Source of the DNA: Shigella phage SHSML-45
Length of the DNA stretch: 64,000 nt
Reading direction: 5' to 3' (one strand)
Sequence record: KX130863
Notes under the pieces: generated by a model
Seen by the model: the letters and a program-made list of their open reading frames with translations, nothing else
What the model was told of the DNA's origin: nothing
Database searches by the model: none
Part shown: positions 2,829-27,396 of the stretch, piece by piece
Layout of the letters: the number at the start of each line of letters is the position of its first letter
Position numbering within the stretch: position 1 is the first letter of the stretch
Translations under genes and position numbers: made by a program

Positions 2829-5662
2829 TCCACAGACTGTTCTCCATCATCCCCTTCGGCCCTAATACGAAAATACAATTTTCTATTTATACCTAGAGCA
2901 CCACTATTCTGGAGAGCAAAGTCTGCCTTATTATACGTTAATAAATAGTCATAAGTATACTGATTTTCAATACGTACACTTCTTAACATCCTATTTTGTG
3001 AATCGTGTATTTCAAGGGTATAAAATATACTCTCTATTATATCTTCTTCAGGTATTCTATCCCAGGCTAGTTTCACATCTGGGCCAACAAACTCAGTTAC
3101 ATCTCCAGAAGCAGTATTAGTTACCCTAAAATTAGATACTACACTAAGGTTTTTAGCGGAGTTAAGTTCTATGGACAGAGTCACCGGAGAACTTCTTCTA
3201 CCATTAATATCCACTGCCCTTATCTCAAATATAGCCAGACCTGCTGGTTCCCCAATTATTTCTTGGATCATACGTTCGTTAGGATTGGTCTCTAACTGTT
3301 GTACTATGTAAGGTTCGGCATGGCCTGAGTGCACAATAGAGTAATAAACTACATTATTGGTTAGACTCGGAAGCCAGGATAACTCACCATTTTTACCTAT
3401 AGAGCCTACTAAACCGCCAGGAGTAGGGGTATACTTAAAGTCTCTAGGAGGAAGGACATTATTACTAATATCGGGAATATCATTACCGCTATTATCAACC
3501 TGCTCAGAGTTGATGAATACATCTTCTCCATACTCCTGTAGAGTAACATTTATCTTTCCTTCCCTAGAGTTTTCCACTTCGTCTACTAGGAAGTACTTCT
3601 TATCCCACCCATAACGGTCGTATGTAAATGCAATAGCATCATTAGGCTCAATACCAATGAATTGATATGGCAATGAGAAAGAAAGTGTTCTTGAGTATCT
3701 GGATTTCTTAAGTTCCCTATCAGCAAAACTTCTTGCAGTATAGTAATTAGTAATATTAGCAAAAGATAGTTGTAATTTTTTATCTAGGTTCTTGTCCTGT
3801 TCCTTATACTTGGAGTTATAGAATGTAATGGAATTAGTTTTCCAGCTAAGAGCTGGATCTACGATAGATGCTTGAACTGAGTTGAATTTATTTCTACCAG
3901 TAGTATCAGATAGCTCCAAATCACCGTAAGTATCTAGAAAATTAATCTCTAATGGAGTATTAGAGTATTTTTCTACAGTAACCCTATACTGGCCAGATAA
4001 ATTGTTAATAGCCCCACCATAGGACTCTAACAAACCTTGCACATTTTTAAATACTGATTCAGATGTATCCAGAATAGTATTCATTTGTACTATTTGTCTA
4101 TTTTCTGCTAGTGGATCAGTCCATCCAACGTATCTCCAATATGGCTGCCAAGATACCTGATAGGATTCATCTATAATATCTAAAATAGCTGCTTCCTGTA
4201 TTAGTTGCTGAAGGGGGAACTGATCAATGGTAATATTAGCGCCATATCTATCAGAGGTTAAGTAATCAAGTGTTTGCCAAATACCATTTAAACTAGTACT
4301 ATTAGCAGTTACTCTACCATCAGAATGGTAGACTTTTACCTTTTTACCTTGAATTTCAGCACTAACTTCTGGAATCTCAGTTCTGTTTTCATTAATAGTA
4401 AAACGCACTACGGCATAAGCAGTATCAAGTAGCTTATATCTAGCATCCCAGTATTCAGGCCCATTACCATTCATATTTTGAAGATAGAACCCACGTTCTT
4501 TAGCTATATCTACTAGTACTTCAGAAGCCGTTTGGTCAGATTTTCCATGATACGTCCAAATTCTTATGTCCCCATTACCATCATTATACTTATATTCCTG
4601 CCCATGCACGGAAGGGCTACTAGAGGGTGTTCCTGACGCTATTCTTTGCATGGTGTCCCCAGCCACTTTTTTAACACCAAAGCAGGTTCTGGAAGAACTA
4701 TCATTATCATTCATACAAATCATAGGGTTATCGCCAAAGGAAAAATCAAGAAAACCGTCTATCTCCCCTTCAGCAAAGGCATATACTACATAAACTATAT
4801 TAGGATTGTGTAGTTCTGTATCCGCAAAAATAGGTATTCCTGGTATTTTCTGCACGCCATAAACTACTGGTATATATTTAGCAGCAAGGTTAAAATCTAT
4901 ATCTACTTCCTTAGTAACAGTTTCATAGTACTTTTTAAGGCTATAGCTTCTAGATAAGCCAAATAGTTTTTTCTTTGATTTTAGCTTATACCTTTCTTCC
5001 TGTACTTGGTACTTTGCTAGTATAGATATACTTTTATTAGCATGAAAGAACCCATAGTCTTCTTGGTACTCAGGTCTTTTAGCCCCGTTAGATGGAACTA
5101 ATTGTCCCGCTACAACTTCAAGCCCCCTATGGGAAGCGTCATCAGTATATCTACCATTAACTCTATCAAAGTCATAGAATTGGTTAGAACAATTCCAGGT
5201 AATTGTAGAGGTTCCTACTCCAGAGGTACTAATGTTATCTTTAATGCCCCCTCCAGTAATCCTCCCCCTAAAATATAGTAAAGGACCATTTGTATCTGGG
5301 TCTACTGGTAGAATAGAACCATCCTCAGTAATAATTGCTTGATGAATTGATACGGTTCTATCTAAGAAGGATACACCATTTTGTACTAGTTTTAGTACTT
5401 CATCCTGTGCTGTACCAGTAATAGTAAAAGATAGACTACCAATAGATAAATCTCTATTTTGTTTGTGTGAGCTAATAGACTTAACTTTACCCGCCTGGTA
5501 TAAGATGCCATTATATAGTACATCCCTAAAATAATCAGTTAAATAAATAAAAGCAGTACTAGTACCAGTAGAGCCAGGTAACTCTAGAGAAATTAGACTA
5601 GCAGTTTTTATTCTGCTATTATTTTTTAAGTAGTTTCTAGCACTATCTAGTATTTTTTTCAT
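2813..5662 (-). CDS. baseplate hub protein pb3-like (949 aa)
   Basis: 949-aa ORF directly after the distal tail protein gene; same length as T5 pb3; overlapping start/stop coupling with neighbours. Confidence 0.7.
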   Translation of the reverse strand: MKKILDSARNYLKNNSRIKTASLISLELPGSTGTSTAFIYLTDYFRDVLYNGILYQAGKVKSISSHKQNRDLSIGSLSFTITGTAQDEVLKLVQNGVSFLDRTVSIHQAIITEDGSILPVDPDTNGPLLYFRGRITGGGIKDNISTSGVGTSTITWNCSNQFYDFDRVNGRYTDDASHRGLEVVAGQLVPSNGAKRPEYQEDYGFFHANKSISILAKYQVQEERYKLKSKKKLFGLSRSYSLKKYYETVTKEVDIDFNLAAKYIPVVYGVQKIPGIPIFADTELHNPNIVYVVYAFAEGEIDGFLDFSFGDNPMICMNDNDSSSRTCFGVKKVAGDTMQRIASGTPSSSPSVHGQEYKYNDGNGDIRIWTYHGKSDQTASEVLVDIAKERGFYLQNMNGNGPEYWDARYKLLDTAYAVVRFTINENRTEIPEVSAEIQGKKVKVYHSDGRVTANSTSLNGIWQTLDYLTSDRYGANITIDQFPLQQLIQEAAILDIIDESYQVSWQPYWRYVGWTDPLAENRQIVQMNTILDTSESVFKNVQGLLESYGGAINNLSGQYRVTVEKYSNTPLEINFLDTYGDLELSDTTGRNKFNSVQASIVDPALSWKTNSITFYNSKYKEQDKNLDKKLQLSFANITNYYTARSFADRELKKSRYSRTLSFSLPYQFIGIEPNDAIAFTYDRYGWDKKYFLVDEVENSREGKINVTLQEYGEDVFINSEQVDNSGNDIPDISNNVLPPRDFKYTPTPGGLVGSIGKNGELSWLPSLTNNVVYYSIVHSGHAEPYIVQQLETNPNERMIQEIIGEPAGLAIFEIRAVDINGRRSSPVTLSIELNSAKNLSVVSNFRVTNTASGDVTEFVGPDVKLAWDRIPEEDIIESIFYTLEIHDSQNRMLRSVRIENQYTYDYLLTYNKADFALQNSGALGINRKLYFRIRAEGDDGEQSVEWASI

Positions 5663-21948: not shown

Positions 21949-23706
21949 TTAGGTAAGGCGTTGAACTGTTACTCTTAGTCTAGGCAGGAAAACTGCACTA
22001 CCTAAACTCACGTGCATAACTACCCCTAGCTCTACATTTCCATTTCCCAGGTTTTTAACGGTGTATATAAAACTATTCCTGCTTAGAGCATTATTAGGGG
22101 TGTATCTAAAAGCTGCTGTAGTATGAAAAGGTACTAGGTAGCCCACAGGTAGCGTTAGAATCTGGTGGAATATTGCATCTCCATTACCATAACTATGCGC
22201 TTTTCTTCCTTGTACTTGAAACACCCTATCATTCCATGTATTAGCAGGAACACCTGCACAGTTAAGGTTACCGGATATAACTTCAGTAGTAAGAATAACT
22301 GTAGCATTACCGCCAGGGATACCTAACCCAATAGTTGATAAACCAACATACCTGTCGCCAGTTCCGGGATAGTAAGGAGTAATATCATCTCCCATATAAG
22401 AACTACCCACATTTCCACCAAAAAGTCGTAGTGGAACTGCTGAGGGTCCCCAAACAACTCCATGCTCATTACCAATAGTATTATCGTTAGAGTTTACATA
22501 CCACTGTTTACCTACTCCGAACTTATAAATGCTAATCTGTGATTTAGCTCCTCCATAATCTACAGGAGACCACAATCCTCCATTACTAGACCCTACAAGT
22601 TCACATCTTGCCGTGGTATCACCAAAAACTCCAGTATACGCTGCGTTATTTCCGATGAATTCCATATCTGGCCTATAGCCTAAGTTACCAAAAGCATTCT
22701 GGTTAATAAACTTATACCCGGTATTAGGGAGACTCACCCCTTTAATTATGAAATTAGAAGGAGATATAAGAATATCAGAACCAGTAAAGGGGTTGCCGGA
22801 AATACTCATACCACCATTCGAGTACCTTAAATTAAGAACATACCAAATAACCTTAGTAGGAGTTATATTATACCAATCCTGTATTACTGTAGGGTTGCCA
22901 GACTGATTGGCCAGATTAGTAGTAGACCCTCTACAAACAAATCTGTTCCCGCCGTCGTGGTACATAGTATTTACATTGCCTGGGAGCCCTTGTCTAACCC
23001 CACCATATCCACGTATATTAGAATTGCAGACATAAAACCAATCATGCCCTCTATGCGCTGCTCCTAGAGGCGACATCCATCCAGGATCCCAATAGTACGG
23101 GTTATTCCCATCTACAGGTACTGTGCTACTGTTAGTAGGAAACCCTAATTGTGCAAAAGCTTCTGCAACAGTAACACCTACAGGAGCTCCCGCACCAGGC
23201 CTAACTATACCATGGTAGGTACTATGTAACGTAGTACCACCTGTGCCACTCCTAGAGATAGATTCTTCGTGCCCTATCGAGGGGTTATAATTATAAGTTC
23301 CAGATGCGAGGCTGTTACCAAATGCAAATCCACTGGTTTGAGAAACACTAGCAAAAGATCTAAAGGGACCTGCTTGAGTAGCAACTATAGTTTGACCAAC
23401 TTTACTCTGAGTACCATTAAGAAAAGCCCTATGAGTACCATTAATCTCAATAGCAGTTAGTATAACTCTACCTGGGTCGTTGGATTTAATATTTATTATG
23501 TCAGAGGGCATCTGACAGACAAAAAACCCATTCCCGGCATCCCCTAATCCTGCCTCATAAGTACCATCAACTAGAACAAATGGCATATCACTATGAAAAA
23601 TACTATTATTATTTGGACTATAGTGACGATTAATGTCACCCCCAGATTCAGTATTTAAAGATAGTACGGTCTTACCATCGCTATATTTTCCAGCGAAAAA
23701 ACCCAT
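21949..23706 (-). CDS. receptor-binding protein pb5-like (585 aa)
   Basis: Gly/Asn/Thr-rich beta-type protein encoded divergently from a lipoprotein gene, the arrangement of T5 oad/llp; 585 aa (T5 pb5 is longer, suggesting a different receptor class). Confidence 0.65.
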
Positions 23707-23731
23707 ATAATCTCCTATTATAAAAATGTAT

Positions 23732-23760
23732 TTGCTTTCATCCCTCTATTTTGCTATAAT
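23732..23760 (+). promoter_or_regulatory. sigma70-type promoter for the Llp-like gene
   Basis: TTGCTT (23732-23737), 17-nt spacer, TATAAT (23755-23760), AT-rich upstream; GGAGAG RBS before ATG at 23792. Confidence 0.65.
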
Positions 23761-23791
23761 AAATTCATAAATTAGAAATGGAGAGATAAAT

Positions 23792-24058
23792 ATGAAAAAG
23801 TTTGTAATTGCACTAGTTGCCGCAGTTATGTTATCTGGTTGTGCACCTGCTCCCAAACCATTTTGTACTGGATTTGTAAAATCTTTTGGAGGTGCCGGAG
23901 AAGAACATTACGGCCTCAAGGTTCAAAAAGTTCGTATTAAGGGAGATCGCTTTCCAGTAGTACAGCTCCGTACTAAGTTTGGGTGGTGGGATCTCAGTCA
24001 GTTTGACCTTAAATACGGTGATTGTAAATTTAAACTAGAGCAATCTAATTACTTGTAA
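23792..24058 (+). CDS. llp: lipoprotein Llp-like (lytic conversion / receptor-blocking), 88 aa
   Basis: Signal peptide plus lipobox (VMLSGC) at the N-terminus; encoded divergently beside the receptor-binding protein gene. Confidence 0.65.
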   Translation: MKKFVIALVAAVMLSGCAPAPKPFCTGFVKSFGGAGEEHYGLKVQKVRIKGDRFPVVQLRTKFGWWDLSQFDLKYGDCKFKLEQSNYL

Positions 24059-24235
24059 TTAGTATAAAGCAAAAAGACATCCAAGTAAACTAAATTTTTT
24101 ATTTCTTGGACGGTATACTGGCAGAAAACACTACATAAGAAAAGTAGAAGTCCTTCTAGGAGTTCACAGGCACGGTTGGTTATGCCCAAATTATAAAATA
24201 TTTTAAAATACCACATTTATAGGAGCATGAAAGAT

Positions 24236-24364
24236 ATGTCAAACAAAAGAAAGAGCAGACGTGGAGAAGTGTACGATAGCTGGATTAATAGCTTTGGATT
24301 CGGAACTATCCTATTCTTTATTTTCGTAGGTTTTTGGTTAGCAGCTATGGCGGGGTGGATTTAA
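24236..24364 (+). CDS. small membrane protein (42 aa)
   Basis: AGGAG RBS before ATG; basic N-terminus then hydrophobic helix (GTILFFIFVGFWLAAMAGWI); below the ORF-track size cutoff. Confidence 0.45.
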   Translation: MSNKRKSRRGEVYDSWINSFGFGTILFFIFVGFWLAAMAGWI

Positions 24365-24471
24365 TGGAATGGGTAATTATTGCATTACTAGGGATTGTGA
24401 TTATCGGGCAATGTATTTTAGATATTCACTTAGCTAGAATTGAAACTTTATTACTGGAGAAGCGTAAATGA
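24364..24471 (+). CDS. small membrane protein (35 aa)
   Basis: ATG overlaps the preceding stop (TAATG); hydrophobic N-terminus MEWVIIALLGIVIIG. Confidence 0.4.
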   Translation: MEWVIIALLGIVIIGQCILDIHLARIETLLLEKRK

Positions 24472-24662
24472 TGGAAGTAGTAGCTACATTAATAGTATTA
24501 GTAGTTTGGGCAGCTTTCATTATTTCTTACACCGCGTATGTTCGCCTAAAAACTCTAGAAGCTCAGGTAAAACAGCAACAATTTGCTATAGAAAAAGTAG
24601 TAGAACTGCAACGTTGTGATAGTACCCGTATTCTGCAAATTGAGAGGGAATTAGATGTTTAG
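24468..24662 (+). CDS. small membrane protein (64 aa)
   Basis: ATGA start/stop overlap with the upstream ORF; one predicted TM helix then charged tail. Confidence 0.5.
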   Translation: MMEVVATLIVLVVWAAFIISYTAYVRLKTLEAQVKQQQFAIEKVVELQRCDSTRILQIERELDV

Positions 24663-24900
24663 TATTATAATTGCTTTTATTATCGGGGTAATCGCGGGAG
24701 TTTTCGGAATGACTGCGGCTATTAACAAGCATCGTAAGTATACTGCGGAAGTATCGCGGGAGATTGCGGAAAGGGAGCGGAAGTTTGAAGAGAAACGTGC
24801 GGAGTTTGAGCGGGAGTGGAATGATGGTTCTCGGGCGTCGCGGAAGAGATTTCGTGAGTTTAGACCTGAACATAGGTTTGATGACCCTTCTATGCGCTAA
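24655..24900 (+). CDS. small membrane protein with Arg/Glu-rich tail (81 aa)
   Basis: Overlaps the upstream ORF; N-terminal TM helix (IIIAFIIGVIAGVFGMTAAI), highly charged C-terminus. Confidence 0.5.
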   Translation: MFSIIIAFIIGVIAGVFGMTAAINKHRKYTAEVSREIAERERKFEEKRAEFEREWNDGSRASRKRFREFRPEHRFDDPSMR

Positions 24901-24942
24901 TTGGGAAATCTCGAAATTTCATAAGATTACACATGGGGGTTC

Positions 24943-25482
24943 ATGGTGAAGAATAATCTAAATATACAGGAAATACAAGAAGTATTTGCTTATGATCCCG
25001 AAACTGGAGTTTTTACCTGGAAAAGAGGCAATCGTAAGGGTAAAGAAGCAGGTACTTTAAATAGGGGATATAGGCAGCTTAAGTATCGAGGGTTTAAAGC
25101 TTATGCACATCAAGTAGCTTTTGTTATTATGGAGAATAGATGGCCAGCGGAATGTGTAGACCACATAGATAGGAATAAACTAAATAATAGATGGTCAAAT
25201 TTAAGAGAGGCTTCAATTACAGAGAATAATCATAATGGCAGAATCTCAAGAGCATCATCAGGCTATCTAAATGTTACATGGCATAAAGAACTTCAGAAGT
25301 GGATGGTAAGATTACATGATAAACAGGGGCTGATAAGGGGTACTACTAAGTACTTTCCCTATAGCGGATTAGAAGATGCCGTAAATTATGCAAATTTACT
25401 AAGAAGGACATTTCATGGTGACTTTGCAATACAGGAGATGTTCAAAGGAAGTATACCAGACGTTGCCCAATTAAACAGTTAA
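24943..25482 (+). CDS. HNH homing endonuclease (179 aa)
   Basis: Motif AHQVAFVIMENRWPAECVDHIDRNKLNNRWSNLREAS typical of phage HNH homing endonucleases; paralogs throughout the window. Confidence 0.75.
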   Translation: MVKNNLNIQEIQEVFAYDPETGVFTWKRGNRKGKEAGTLNRGYRQLKYRGFKAYAHQVAFVIMENRWPAECVDHIDRNKLNNRWSNLREASITENNHNGRISRASSGYLNVTWHKELQKWMVRLHDKQGLIRGTTKYFPYSGLEDAVNYANLLRRTFHGDFAIQEMFKGSIPDVAQLNS

Positions 25483-25529
25483 TTAGCGCTAAAATGACTT
25501 TTGCCAAATTCTTTGGATTACGTACGCGT

Positions 25530-25550
25530 GGGTGGGTGCAGTGGGTTGGG
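25530..25550 (+). other. G-quadruplex-type motif
   Basis: Four GGG tracts with short loops (GGGTGGGTGCAGTGGGTTGGG) in an intergenic region. Confidence 0.4.
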
Positions 25551-26886: not shown

Positions 26887-27396
26887 TTAATAAGGGATAT
26901 TAAATTCTTTACACTTTGATTTAACCCATTCTAAAAGAATAGATAAATCATAATTGCCTTTTGAAACATATTTATTTGTTATAGGGTTTTTAATTTTTGC
27001 CCTGTAATATTCTCCCGCTATGGGATCAACTTTATCAAGATAAATATATTTCGGTAGTTTATTACGCCTTTTATAATCACTCTTATTTGTCATATTAACA
27101 GCATGAGTAACTAGGCGTAAATTATTTATATCGTTGTTAACGGGGTAAGAAATTATTTTATGATCTATATCTAAATCAGGGTTAATTTCTTTATTAAATA
27201 AAACCCAAATTAAACGATGAGCTTTATATAATTCACCATTAATCATTACATCATAATAGCCTGTCTGATTTAATGTTCCCGCTACACTTCCAGCTTTCAC
27301 ACCGGGCTTACTTATTTTCCATCGTAAAAATGATGGGCTAGATTCATCATAATAAACATTCTCGTTAACTTCATTAAAATCTATTTCTTTTGCCAT
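26887..27396 (-). CDS. HNH homing endonuclease (169 aa)
   Basis: Motif YKAHRLIWVLFNKEINPDLDIDHKI...NLRLVTHAVN shared with other HNH paralogs. Confidence 0.7.
   Translation of the reverse strand: MAKEIDFNEVNENVYYDESSPSFLRWKISKPGVKAGSVAGTLNQTGYYDVMINGELYKAHRLIWVLFNKEINPDLDIDHKIISYPVNNDINNLRLVTHAVNMTNKSDYKRRNKLPKYIYLDKVDPIAGEYYRAKIKNPITNKYVSKGNYDLSILLEWVKSKCKEFNIPY

What the first reader, a model, noticed from the sequence alone, without database searches (positions are those of the whole stretch)
23707..24900. Lipoprotein gene with strong promoter followed by four translationally coupled small membrane-protein genes
Divergent from the receptor-binding gene is an Llp-like lipoprotein with a textbook TTGCTT-17-TATAAT promoter. 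Directly after it come four small single-TM proteins (42, 35, 64 and 81 aa) with overlapping start and stop codons (TAATG, ATGA). T5 Llp blocks the receptor to prevent superinfection. The extra membrane proteins could extend that function (exclusion, receptor masking) or be an unrelated membrane-active module. Two of them are too short to appear in the ORF track.
Basis: partly seen in the sequence, partly recalled or inferred. Interest (0 to 1): 0.5.

Follow-up and report, generated by a model that had tools for sequence, protein, structure and literature searches.

The report
BF23-type llp plus T5 orf1-4
This is the well-known right-end early operon of a T5-like phage: the BF23 receptor-blocking lipoprotein gene followed by four tiny membrane-protein genes that have been annotated in phage T5 since 1994, whose function is still unknown but which do not look like partners of the lipoprotein.

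Summary
A lipoprotein gene (23792-24058) lies divergent from the receptor-binding gene. It sits behind TTGCTT-17-TGcTATAAT (23732-23760). Four single-TM ORFs of 42, 35, 64 and 81 aa follow, with overlaps TAATG, ATGA and ATGTTTAG.

Corrections: 177 nt separate llp from the first small ORF, and this spacer is a decayed fifth gene.

The lipoprotein is 88/88 identical to BF23 Llp, the characterised BtuB blocker. It is not demonstrably homologous to T5 Llp.

The four ORFs are T5 orf1-4 (T5.159-T5.162; PHROGs 8596, 6369, 5851, 6447). They are real genes (dN/dS 0.09-0.30).

They stay 73-100% conserved across three unrelated receptor-binding-protein types, and occur in phages with no lipoprotein at this locus. 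So they belong to the backbone, not to the swappable RBP-llp cassette.

The positive-inside rule places their tails in the cytoplasm, out of reach of an outer-membrane receptor.

The promoter belongs to the phage's early class (14 motif matches in the window against 0.44 expected).

T5 knock-downs scored all four "Not Fit".

Their function remains unknown. My best guess is accessory early inner-membrane factors. The locus is already known and of modest interest.

The parts
21949..23706 (-). Receptor-binding tail-tip protein (pb5/Hrs family, 585 aa). It belongs to the BtuB-type group of alleles and forms a swappable host-recognition cassette together with llp.
   Evidence: phrog_4815, E 6e-273. 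97% identical to the RBPs of VSe12 and chee24, 396 of 585 residues identical to BF23 Hrs, and 30% identical to T5 pb5.
23732..23772 (+). T5 early-class sigma-70 promoter: TTGCTT, 17 nt, (TGc)TATAAT, 6 nt, ATAAAT.
   Evidence: Exact match to the composite motif. The window holds 14 matches with up to 3 mismatches against 0.44 expected, and 0 of 100 shuffles reach 14. The other 13 lie on the minus strand at 42.5-63 kb. The same architecture sits at this position in T5, TrudiRoth, Shivani, PSTCR5 and Boggle.
23780..23785 (+). Shine-Dalgarno sequence GGAGAG of llp, 6 nt upstream of the ATG.
   Evidence: Read from the sequence. It lies inside the exact match to primer BF23Llp42-F.
23792..24058 (+). 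llp, BF23 allele: an 88-aa prolipoprotein with lipobox LSG|C17 and Ala at +2, so sorted to the outer membrane. It is the BtuB-blocking lytic-conversion and superinfection-exclusion protein.
   Evidence: 88/88 identical to BF23_00171, annotated 'receptor blocking protein'. LPAM_1 hit. phrog_1119, E 1.8e-26. C17, C25 and C78 are invariant in 12 homologues. dN/dS is 0.14. Function is taken from PMC4728585 and PMC10644984.
24059..24235 (+). Spacer between llp and o1. It is a decayed remnant of a fifth gene that is intact in phage Shivani (108 aa). It includes a conserved leader element, CATCCAAGTAAAC...T-run...CTTGGA (24078-24114), and the AGGAG SD of o1 (24221-24225).
   Evidence: 76.5% nucleotide identity over 98 nt to the Shivani leader and gene start (E 4e-17). 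The T5 spacer aligns to the Shivani protein with in-frame stops (E 6e-8). No terminator, no Rfam hit, and a fold z-score of -0.75.
24236..24364 (+). o1, equal to T5.159 / orf1 (42 aa). It has a basic N-terminus and a C-terminal TM, so it is predicted to be N-in and tail-anchored in the inner membrane.
   Evidence: phrog_8596, E 4e-32. Found in 446 phage records. dN/dS is 0.09. The start is supported by the alignment.
24364..24471 (+). o2, equal to T5.160 / orf2 (35 aa). It has an N-terminal TM and a short basic helix. Its start overlaps the o1 stop (TAATG).
   Evidence: phrog_6369, E 6e-24. dN/dS is 0.11. A 51-aa paralogue is inserted in HildyBeyeler and L014 (hhalign probability 95.6%).
24468..24662 (+). 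o3, equal to T5.161 / orf3 (64 aa). It has an N-terminal TM and a coiled-coil-like tail. Its start overlaps the o2 stop (ATGA).
   Evidence: phrog_5851, E 1e-33. Found in 305 records. dN/dS is 0.30. It is absent from some lineages.
24655..24900 (+). o4, equal to T5.162 / orf4 (81 aa). It has an N-terminal TM that continues into a long, highly charged helix, then a basic tail. It overlaps o3 by 8 nt.
   Evidence: phrog_6447, E 5e-46. Found in 354 records. dN/dS is 0.17. The AF2 model is a single helix over residues 2-69, pLDDT 71. Residues 1-66 are conserved and the C-terminus comes in three alternative versions.
24936..25530 (+). HNH homing-endonuclease cassette (CDS 24943-25482). It marks the 3' limit of the operon and sits at the junction between unique sequence and the terminal repeat.
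   Evidence: HNH_3, 44.3 bits. phrog_99, E 1.5e-50. Compared with T5 it is a roughly 595-bp insertion ending a few bp before the T5 right terminal repeat start.

Best explanation
This is the right-end early operon of a T5-like (Tequintavirus) phage.

Shown:

- A promoter of the phage's own early class drives llp.
- The llp product is identical to BF23 Llp, an outer-membrane lipoprotein that blocks the BtuB receptor. That block stops superinfection and stops progeny being lost on cell debris.
- Four translationally coupled genes follow. They are orthologues of T5 orf1-4 (T5.159-T5.162), lie under purifying selection, and each encodes a tiny protein with one TM segment.
- They belong to the conserved genome backbone, not to the exchangeable RBP-llp cassette.

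Inferred:

- No early-class promoter motif and no terminator lie between llp and o1, and the spacer is a dead gene. So the four are most likely co-transcribed with llp as early genes.
- By the positive-inside rule, o1 is N-in and tail-anchored, and o2-o4 are N-out and C-in. All soluble parts therefore face the cytoplasm from the inner membrane.
- They therefore cannot mask an outer-membrane receptor and do not act through Llp.

My committed guess, at low confidence: they are accessory early inner-membrane factors that alter the infected cell's inner membrane from its cytoplasmic face. The most plausible version is a receptor-independent barrier against DNA entry by related phages, or resealing and modulation of the membrane. 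They are dispensable under laboratory conditions.
For: Identity of llp:

- 88/88 identical to BF23 Llp.
- The published BF23 llp primers match the window exactly.
- Expression of the DT57C llp gene (one residue different from BF23 Llp) lowers plating of BF23-type phages more than 100-fold and leaves T5 unaffected (PMC4728585).

Identity of the four ORFs:

- T5 annotation.
- PHROG hits.
- 73-100% identity in 25 loci.

They are real genes: dN/dS is 0.09-0.30, with variable sites most numerous at third codon positions.

They are backbone, not cassette:

- They are conserved next to BtuB-type, FhuA-type and Shivani-type RBPs.
- Homology between the T5-type and BF23-type loci resumes about 45-50 nt upstream of o1.
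- Shivani, Boggle and PSTCR5 have small TM ORFs at this locus but no lipobox ORF.

Early promoter class: 14 motif hits against 0.44 expected. This is the only one on the plus strand. The same promoter heads the locus in six phages from four genera.

Co-transcription:

- No terminator and no structured RNA in the spacer.
- The spacer is a pseudogene remnant.
- The T5 record annotates promoters and terminators genome-wide and has none between llp and T5.159.
- In Bas33 RNA-seq at 20 min, TPM is 127-219 for llp, 137-162 for the extra o2 paralogue and 408-462 for o3 (PMC13250531 supplement).

Topology: K and R residues lie N-terminal of the TM in o1 and C-terminal of the TM in o2-o4 (sequences). 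The o4 model is one long helix.

Dispensability: T5.159-T5.162 were all scored 'Not Fit' in the CRISPRi-ART screen (PMC11879866 supplement).

Not needed for lysis: T5 has a holin, an endolysin and two spanins elsewhere in the genome.
Against: - No experiment addresses the function of orf1-4. The mechanistic part rests on position, timing and topology only.
- Topology comes from charge distribution, not from a dedicated predictor or from fusions.
- Known inner-membrane exclusion proteins are usually single proteins, often with periplasmic parts. These four have essentially none.
- The BF23 GenBank record annotates a computationally predicted promoter in the llp-o1 spacer. There is also a 9/12 sigma-70 match at 24003-24030. 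Independent transcription therefore cannot be excluded.
- The RNA-seq was not strand-specific. It gave about 1 TPM for o1 and o2 and 13-22 for o4, which is uneven for one operon. The two genes shorter than a read were probably under-counted.
- The CRISPRi-ART T5 data set has low sensitivity: the portal and primase genes were also scored 'Not Fit'.
Confidence: 0.6

Rival explanations
1. One reading: the four membrane proteins work with Llp to mask or inactivate the outer-membrane receptor, as an extended lytic-conversion module.
For: They share strand and probably transcript with llp and sit next to the RBP gene. All known receptors of this subfamily are TonB-dependent transporters (PMC8594841), so a shared energy-transduction target in the inner membrane is conceivable.
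Against: - Their sequences are conserved while the RBP and llp are replaced by unrelated alleles.
- They are present where no lipoprotein exists in the locus.
- The predicted topology leaves at most 3 residues in the periplasm for o2-o4 and none for o1.
- Llp alone, expressed from a plasmid, suffices for exclusion (PMC4728585).
Confidence: 0.05
2. They are lysis regulators, for example antiholins or holin modulators that set lysis timing from the inner membrane.
For: They are small bitopic membrane proteins. The T5 holin is a single-TM protein and the T5 spanins resemble those of T4, a phage whose holin is controlled by small accessory proteins (own knowledge).
Against: - They lie about 90 kb from the lysis genes on the T5 map (T5.040-T5.045 at about 20-23 kb, T5.159-T5.162 at about 111 kb).
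- They use an early promoter rather than lysis-cassette control.
- They have no similarity to any holin, antiholin or spanin family in Pfam, PHROGs or NCBIfam.
- Their orientation is the opposite of i-spanins and of RI.
Confidence: 0.1
3. They are host-takeover modulators. Each small protein binds and inhibits or re-tunes a host inner-membrane machine (division, FtsH-type proteolysis, transport), as many bacterial small membrane proteins do.
For: - Early expression class.
- Tails facing the cytoplasm.
- Weak, sub-threshold resemblance of o4 to the bitopic proteins LapA, ZapG and FtsL (22.1, 19 and 14.4 bits).
- Copy number varies between lineages.
Against: The family hits are all below the curated cut-offs and are what any TM-plus-charged-helix sequence would give. 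T5 already assigns division inhibition to a pre-early gene (PMC13250531). No target is indicated by any data.
Confidence: 0.2
4. They are not functional genes but chance ORFs in AT-rich DNA next to the terminal repeat.
For: They are very short. Two are below usual gene-calling limits. Knock-downs show no fitness effect. Read counts for o1 and o2 are about 1 TPM.
Against: - dN/dS is 0.09-0.30 with variable sites most numerous at third positions.
- Start codons, SD sequences and overlaps are conserved in more than 300 phage records.
- o1 is found in as many records (446) as there are close TerL homologues (442 at 90% identity or more).
Confidence: 0.03

Closest known systems
Phage T5 llp-orf1-orf2-orf3-orf4 locus (GenBank X75922; T5.158-T5.162 in NC_005859)
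   Same: Same position: between the RBP gene and the right terminal repeat. Same early promoter architecture, same four ORF lengths (42, 35, 64 and 81 aa) and same overlaps. Protein identity is 83-98% for orf1-4.
   Different: The llp gene is a different, unrelated allele (BF23 type, 88 aa, blocks BtuB) rather than T5 Llp (77 aa, blocks FhuA). The RBP is only 30% identical. An HNH cassette follows orf4 here.
Phage BF23 hrs-llp host-recognition module (OR083247; Mondigler et al. 2006, as cited in PMC4728585 and PMC10644984)
   Same: Llp is 88/88 identical. The small ORFs are 56/64 to 77/81 identical. The spacer is nearly identical.
   Different: The RBP is only about 67% identical (396 of 585 residues), so this phage pairs BF23 Llp with a different BtuB-group RBP allele. 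The same pairing was described for DT57C. BF23 has no HNH gene after orf4.
Cor / T5 Llp family of FhuA-blocking lipoproteins (structural mechanism in PMC9586334)
   Same: A small outer-membrane lipoprotein encoded next to the RBP gene, expressed early, that blocks a TonB-dependent transporter. PHROGs places it in the same cluster, phrog_1119. It has two invariant cysteines besides the lipid-attachment cysteine, which could form a disulphide as in T5 Llp.
   Different: - Pairwise similarity to T5 Llp is confined largely to the signal peptide.
- The NCBIfam Cor model scores 15.8 bits against a cutoff of 31.
- There is no PDB sequence hit.
- Foldseek finds no match to the solved T5 Llp structure.
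- The target is BtuB, not FhuA.
Inner-membrane superinfection-exclusion proteins such as T4 Imm (own knowledge)
   Same: Small, early-expressed, membrane-embedded and non-essential in the laboratory. Encoded among host-interaction genes.
   Different: No sequence similarity was found to any described family. There are four or five coupled proteins rather than one. No exclusion phenotype has been shown.

Membership tests
BF23-type Llp (BtuB-blocking lytic-conversion lipoprotein) | Sequence identity to the experimentally characterised BF23 Llp | tested here: met
   88/88 residues identical to BF23_00171. Both published BF23 llp primers match the window exactly, at 23780-23820 and 24221-24241.
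BF23-type Llp (BtuB-blocking lytic-conversion lipoprotein) | Lipoprotein signal peptide with a lipobox, and a non-Asp residue at +2 (outer-membrane sorting) | tested here: met
   LPAM_1 scores 23.9 bits against a cutoff of 20. The sequence reads LSG|C17-A18. C17 is invariant in 12 homologues.
BF23-type Llp (BtuB-blocking lytic-conversion lipoprotein) | Encoded divergently next to the RBP (hrs/oad) gene, behind an early promoter | tested here: met
   The RBP start is at 23706 (minus strand) and the llp start at 23792 (plus strand). The early-class promoter is at 23732-23772.
BF23-type Llp (BtuB-blocking lytic-conversion lipoprotein) | Blocks BtuB and excludes BtuB-dependent T5-like phages | not testable with these tools
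   Taken from the literature for the identical or one-residue-different protein (PMC4728585; PMC10644984).
T5 Llp / Cor family (FhuA blockers) | Detectable sequence homology of the mature protein to T5 Llp or Cor | tested here: inconclusive
   phrog_1119 'Cor', E 1.8e-26 over the full length. Against that, BLASTP to T5 Llp gives 30% identity over 67 aa, mainly in the signal peptide. The NCBIfam Cor model gives 15.8 bits against a cutoff of 31, covering residues 1-35 only. The literature calls the two proteins non-homologous.
T5 Llp / Cor family (FhuA blockers) | Fold shared with the solved T5 Llp structure | tested here: not met
   AF2 model with pLDDT 83. Foldseek against the PDB gives no match at E <= 0.001, and T5 Llp is not among the top 50. 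Caveat: this is a small domain and only one method was used.
T5 orf1-4 / T5.159-T5.162 small membrane proteins (PHROGs 8596, 6369, 5851, 6447) | Full-length sequence match to each family | tested here: met
   E-values of 4e-32, 6e-24, 1e-33 and 5e-46, each covering the whole profile. Identity to the T5 proteins is 83-98%.
T5 orf1-4 / T5.159-T5.162 small membrane proteins (PHROGs 8596, 6369, 5851, 6447) | Synteny: between llp/RBP and the right terminal repeat, same order, with overlapping starts and stops | tested here: met
   The T5 and BF23 repeats start 42 nt after the orf4 stop. Here the HNH insertion sits at that point.
T5 orf1-4 / T5.159-T5.162 small membrane proteins (PHROGs 8596, 6369, 5851, 6447) | One transmembrane segment each | tested here: met
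   The maximum 17-residue Kyte-Doolittle mean is 2.2-3.3 in relatives. The T5 record notes 'contains single transmembrane domain' for each.
Two-component spanins / holins (lysis proteins) | i-spanin topology (N-in, periplasmic coiled coil) paired with an o-spanin lipoprotein inside a lysis cassette | tested here: not met
   Basic residues follow the TM in o2-o4, predicting a C-in orientation (sequences). No lysis-family hits were found. The T5 holin, endolysin and spanins are elsewhere in the genome.
Inner-membrane superinfection-exclusion proteins (T4 Imm-like) | Sequence or profile similarity to a described exclusion protein | tested here: not met
   No hit in Pfam, PHROGs, NCBIfam or PADLOC beyond their own families. 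An exhaustive HMMER search with the o4 profile found only T5-like phage proteins.
Inner-membrane superinfection-exclusion proteins (T4 Imm-like) | Blocks DNA entry of a superinfecting phage after adsorption | not testable with these tools
   Needs plating, adsorption and injection assays.

The most novel reading that the evidence does not exclude
The array of tiny bitopic membrane proteins, not llp, is the ancestral payload of a conserved early operon at the right genome end of T5-like phages. In this reading it forms a receptor-independent inner-membrane module.

One possible role is blocking DNA entry by related phages that use a different receptor and so escape Llp. Another is resealing the membrane after the phage's own two-step DNA transfer.

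In this reading llp is a later cassette insertion into the operon's 5' leader.

Supporting hints:

- The same early promoter and leader precede small TM ORFs in Shivani, in a Klebsiella Sugarlandvirus and in a Providencia Priunavirus. None of these has a lipoprotein there.
- The array gains and loses paralogues between lineages.
Probability: 0.2. Interest if true: 0.55.

Novelty: already known. Interest (0 to 1): 0.25.

Why it matters
As found, it matters little. The locus is a textbook T5/BF23 feature, present in several hundred sequenced phages.

It does point to a real gap in knowledge. The four genes are conserved, lie under purifying selection and have an early-class promoter, with o1 near-universal in the subfamily, yet they have had no assigned function since 1994.

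They are outside the receptor cassette and probably face the cytoplasm. That narrows the experiments worth doing. It also warns against annotating them as 'receptor-blocking' or 'tail' proteins, as several GenBank records do.

For phage-therapy engineering of T5-like phages, it helps to know that RBP plus llp can be swapped without touching this array.

Tried and rejected
1. A regulatory element in the llp-o1 spacer. The scan found no terminator-like site there; the only plus-strand promoter-like match upstream of o1 (24003-24030, 9/12) lies inside llp, and the regional count is at chance level (5 found against 5.7 expected). There is no Rfam match. Folding is no better than for shuffles, with z-scores of -0.75 here and +0.70 in T5. 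The spacer turned out to be a dead gene.

2. Distant homologues of o4. The word-indexed search found 76 proteins, all at least 54% identical over the matched stretch and from T5-like phage contigs. The exhaustive HMMER profile search of 1.84 billion representatives found the same family plus one marginal hit. No lead to function came from either.

3. Sub-threshold hits of o4 to LapA_dom, ZapG-like and FtsL. I rejected these as compositional, since any TM plus charged helix would give them.

4. PADLOC defence models: no hits.

5. Fold comparison of the BF23-type Llp model with solved structures: nothing significant, and no T5 Llp match. PDB sequence search: only noise.

6. Paralogy between o2 and o3: not supported (hhalign probability 1%). 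Paralogy between o2 and the extra 51-aa ORF of some relatives is supported (95.6%).

7. A role in lysis: set aside, because T5 has a full lysis set elsewhere.

8. Genome-wide essentiality papers (HIDEN-SEQ and two transposon studies): they contain no T5-like data. A full-text search for the terms T5.159 to T5.162 found no relevant paper.

9. The minus-strand 95-aa ORF at 24586-24873, which overlaps o4. I rejected it because substitutions follow the codon phase of the plus-strand frame.

10. Whether the window is phage Shivani. TerL and o3 are 100% identical. But Shivani has a different RBP, no llp and an extra HNH gene in this locus, so the window is a mosaic relative.
Full report
**What is there.** The window around 23.7-24.9 kb reads as the first-stage reader said.

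- The 585-aa receptor-binding protein gene runs leftward from 23706.
- Eighty-five bases away, an 88-aa ORF runs rightward (23792-24058). It has a classical lipoprotein signal, MKKFVIALVAAVMLSG|C (Pfam LPAM_1, 23.9 bits against a cutoff of 20).
- It is preceded by GGAGAG (23780-23785) and by TTGCTT-17 nt-TATAAT (23732-23760), with a TG that makes an extended -10.
- After a 177-nt spacer come four ORFs of 42, 35, 64 and 81 aa: 24236-24364, 24364-24471, 24468-24662 and 24655-24900.
- Their junctions are TAATG, ATGA and an 8-nt overlap, ATGTTTAG.
- Each has its own purine-rich SD-like sequence and one strongly hydrophobic segment.

**Where it comes from.** The region is 91-95% identical to 246 records of T5-like phages of Escherichia and Salmonella. 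The neighbours are the terminase subunits on one side. On the other side lie an HNH endonuclease and the pre-early genes dmp and A1 of the terminal repeat. The large terminase is 100% identical to that of Salmonella phage Shivani. Shivani differs in this locus, so the window is a mosaic Tequintavirus.

**The lipoprotein.**

- It is 88/88 identical to the 'receptor blocking protein' of phage BF23 (OR083247).
- The two primers published for cloning BF23-type llp match the window exactly, at 23780-23820 and 24221-24241 (primers in PMC4728585).
- That paper shows that expressing the DT57C llp gene (one residue different from BF23 Llp) lowers plating of BF23 and DT57C more than 100-fold but not of T5. 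It also shows that those phages use BtuB.
- So the gene is llp in the functional sense, but the BF23 allele.
- Its relation to T5 Llp is weak. BLASTP gives 30% identity over 67 residues, mostly signal peptide. The NCBIfam Cor model scores below its cutoff. There is no PDB sequence hit. A confident AF2 model (pLDDT 83) finds no solved structure at E <= 0.001, and T5 Llp is not in the top 50.
- PHROGs nevertheless lumps it into phrog_1119 'Cor'. The literature calls the two Llp proteins non-homologous.
- Three cysteines are invariant: C17, C25 and C78.
- Ala at +2 predicts outer-membrane sorting (established Lol rule). This fits the periplasmic-face binding shown for T5 Llp on FhuA (PMC9586334).

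**The four small ORFs are known genes.**

- They are orf1-orf4 of the original T5 llp record X75922.
- They are T5.159-T5.162 of NC_005859, each annotated 'contains single transmembrane domain'.
- They match PHROGs 8596, 6369, 5851 and 6447 over their full lengths, with E-values from 6e-24 to 5e-46.
- tblastn finds o1 in 446 phage records, o4 in 354 and o3 in 305. For comparison, 442 records carry a TerL at least 90% identical. So o1 is close to universal in the subfamily.
- Pooled pairwise dN/dS over 10-20 distinct sequences is 0.09, 0.11, 0.30 and 0.17. Variable sites are most numerous at third codon positions in all four.
- They are therefore real protein-coding genes, not chance ORFs.
- The 42-aa start of o1 is the conserved one. 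The upstream ATG is ACG in several relatives.

**They are not part of the receptor cassette.**

- In 25 related loci the four proteins stay 73-100% identical. This holds whether the adjacent RBP and llp are BF23-type or T5-type, where the RBP is 30% identical and llp is undetectable.
- It also holds in Shivani, whose RBP is a third type: 24% identical to T5 pb5 and about 30% to this one.
- Nucleotide homology between the T5-type and BF23-type loci resumes about 45-50 nt upstream of the o1 start codon.
- Shivani has o1-o4 but no lipobox ORF in the locus.
- A Klebsiella relative (Boggle) has 74-aa and 153-aa proteins, each an N-terminal TM plus coiled coil, at this position.
- A Providencia relative (PSTCR5, 70% TerL identity) has five overlapping single-TM ORFs of 29-46 aa there.
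- Neither of those two has a lipoprotein at the locus. Vibrio phage pVp-1 has no such array.
- The array also varies within the subfamily. HildyBeyeler and L014 carry an extra 51-aa paralogue of o2 (hhalign probability 95.6%). Some lineages lack o3. The o4 C-terminus after residue 66 comes in three versions.

**The spacer.**

- The 177 nt between llp and o1 hold no terminator-like site and no Rfam family, and fold no better than shuffles.
- Comparison explains the spacer. Its first 98 nt are 76.5% identical (E 4e-17) to the leader and start of a 108-aa gene that is intact in Shivani.
- The T5 spacer still aligns to that protein, with in-frame stops and a deletion (E 6e-8).
- In TrudiRoth the gene matches in two separate pieces and is annotated as two ORFs.
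- The spacer is thus a decayed fifth gene.
- The sequence after llp (TATAAAGCAAAAAGACATCCAAGTAAAC...) also repeats the promoter-proximal leader seen in Shivani (TATAAATTAAAAAGGCATCCAAGTAAAC...). This suggests that llp was inserted as a cassette into the 5' leader of an older operon (inference).

**Promoter and timing.**

- The composite motif TTGCTT-N17-TATAAT-N6-ATAAAT occurs 14 times in the window with up to 3 mismatches. Only 0.44 are expected, and 0 of 100 shuffles reach 14.
- Thirteen of these lie on the minus strand between 42.5 and 63 kb. From its position beyond the terminal-repeat genes I take that stretch to be the early-gene region; I did not check it gene by gene. The fourteenth is the llp promoter.
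- The same architecture heads this locus in T5, TrudiRoth, Shivani, PSTCR5 and Boggle.
- From memory, it resembles the classic strong T5 promoter PN25.
- A study of T5 promoters notes an AT-rich discriminator consensus in early promoters (PMC7472727).
- The generic scan missed this promoter because TTGCTT matches TTGACA at only 3 of 6 positions.
- With no early-class motif and no terminator before o1, co-transcription with llp is the simplest reading.
- Against that, the BF23 record annotates a software-predicted promoter in the spacer, and a 9/12 sigma-70 match lies at 24003-24030.
- In RNA-seq of the 93%-identical phage Bas33 at 20 min, as I read the columns of the supplementary table, TPM is:
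  - 127-219 for llp
  - 137-162 for the extra o2 paralogue
  - 408-462 for o3
  - 13-22 for o4
  - about 1 for o1 and o2
- The last two genes are shorter than one read. The analysis was not strand-specific (PMC13250531).

**Topology and what it excludes.**

- o1 has five K/R residues before its C-terminal TM and nothing after it.
- o2, o3 and o4 start with 1-3 residues and then the TM. The TM is followed by K/R-rich helices: LARIETLLLEKRK, YVRLKTLEAQVK... and INKHRKY...EKRAEFEREW...SRKRF.
- By the positive-inside rule, all soluble parts face the cytoplasm.
- AF2 models o4 as one helix over residues 2-69, at pLDDT 71.
- Such proteins cannot reach an outer-membrane transporter. Together with the cassette independence, this argues against receptor masking.
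- A lysis role is unnecessary, because T5 has a holin, an endolysin and two spanins elsewhere. The orientation is also the opposite of i-spanins.

**Function.**

- Nothing in Pfam, NCBIfam or PADLOC gives a lead. The only hits of o4, to LapA_dom, ZapG and FtsL, are below threshold and compositional.
- An exhaustive profile search found only T5-like phage proteins.
- In the CRISPRi-ART screen of T5, T5.159-T5.162 were all 'Not Fit' (PMC11879866 supplement). That data set also missed known essential genes.
- I found no paper that tests these genes.
- My committed, low-confidence reading is that they are accessory early inner-membrane factors acting from the cytoplasmic face. The leading candidates are a receptor-independent exclusion or membrane-protection role and modulation of host membrane machines.

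**Verdict.** The Llp call is right in function, though it is the BF23 allele for BtuB. The proposed functional link to the small proteins is not supported. The arrangement has been on record since 1994. Interest is modest: it lies in an old unanswered question, not in a new discovery.

Noticed in passing
window 24936-25530 (CDS 24943-25482): An HNH homing-endonuclease cassette is inserted within a few bp of the point where the right terminal repeat begins in T5 and BF23, 42 nt after the orf4 stop. Relatives carry a different HNH gene there, or none. The alternative C-termini of o4 (55-81 aa) track these insertions.
   Followed up: partly
window 42579-62973, minus strand (13 sites), plus 23732-23772, plus strand: A composite promoter motif, TTGCTT-N17-TATAAT-N6-ATAAAT, occurs 14 times against 0.44 expected. 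It appears to define the phage's early promoter set. The llp promoter is the only copy on the plus strand and the only one outside that stretch.
   Followed up: partly
window 24078-24114; Shivani L029 about 2575-2612; Boggle L026 about 3985-4020: A conserved leader element, CATCCAAGTAAAC - T-run - CTTGGA(T/C)G, is an imperfect hairpin with a loop of about 20 nt. It lies after llp here and directly after the early promoter in Shivani and in a Klebsiella phage. Its role is unknown. It folds no better than shuffles and is not repeated elsewhere in the window.
   Followed up: partly
window 24059-24235; Shivani L029 2630-2956; TrudiRoth L005 2217-2533: The llp-o1 spacer is the remnant of a fifth gene. 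That gene is 108 aa and intact in Shivani, annotated as two ORFs in Epseptimavirus, and truncated with in-frame stops in T5. It has a weakly hydrophobic segment, LIGTVVMVRAIARVF.
   Followed up: yes
HildyBeyeler L001 2455-2610; L014 3055-3210: An extra 51-aa gene is inserted between o1 and o2 in some relatives. It is a paralogue of o2, sharing MEWVII... and ...RIETLLEERK, so the array grows by tandem duplication.
   Followed up: yes
Providencia phage PSTCR5 L027 4439-4987; Klebsiella phage Boggle L026 4033-4802: Distant Demerecviridae carry unrelated-looking arrays of tiny single-TM ORFs at the same position, behind the same promoter type and without a lipoprotein. PSTCR5 has five ORFs of 29-46 aa, and Boggle has 74-aa and 153-aa TM-plus-coiled-coil proteins.
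   Followed up: partly
window 26887-27396, minus strand: A second homing-endonuclease-like ORF (169 aa) sits among the pre-early genes between dmp and A1. Shivani has an annotated HNH gene at the equivalent place.
   Followed up: no
GenBank records listed (for example VSe12, JLBYU40, OSYSP, phiLLS): Public annotations of the small ORFs are inconsistent and sometimes misleading. o1 is called 'receptor-blocking protein', and o3 and o4 are called 'tail assembly protein' or 'tail fiber protein'. These look like label spill-over from neighbouring genes.
   Followed up: no
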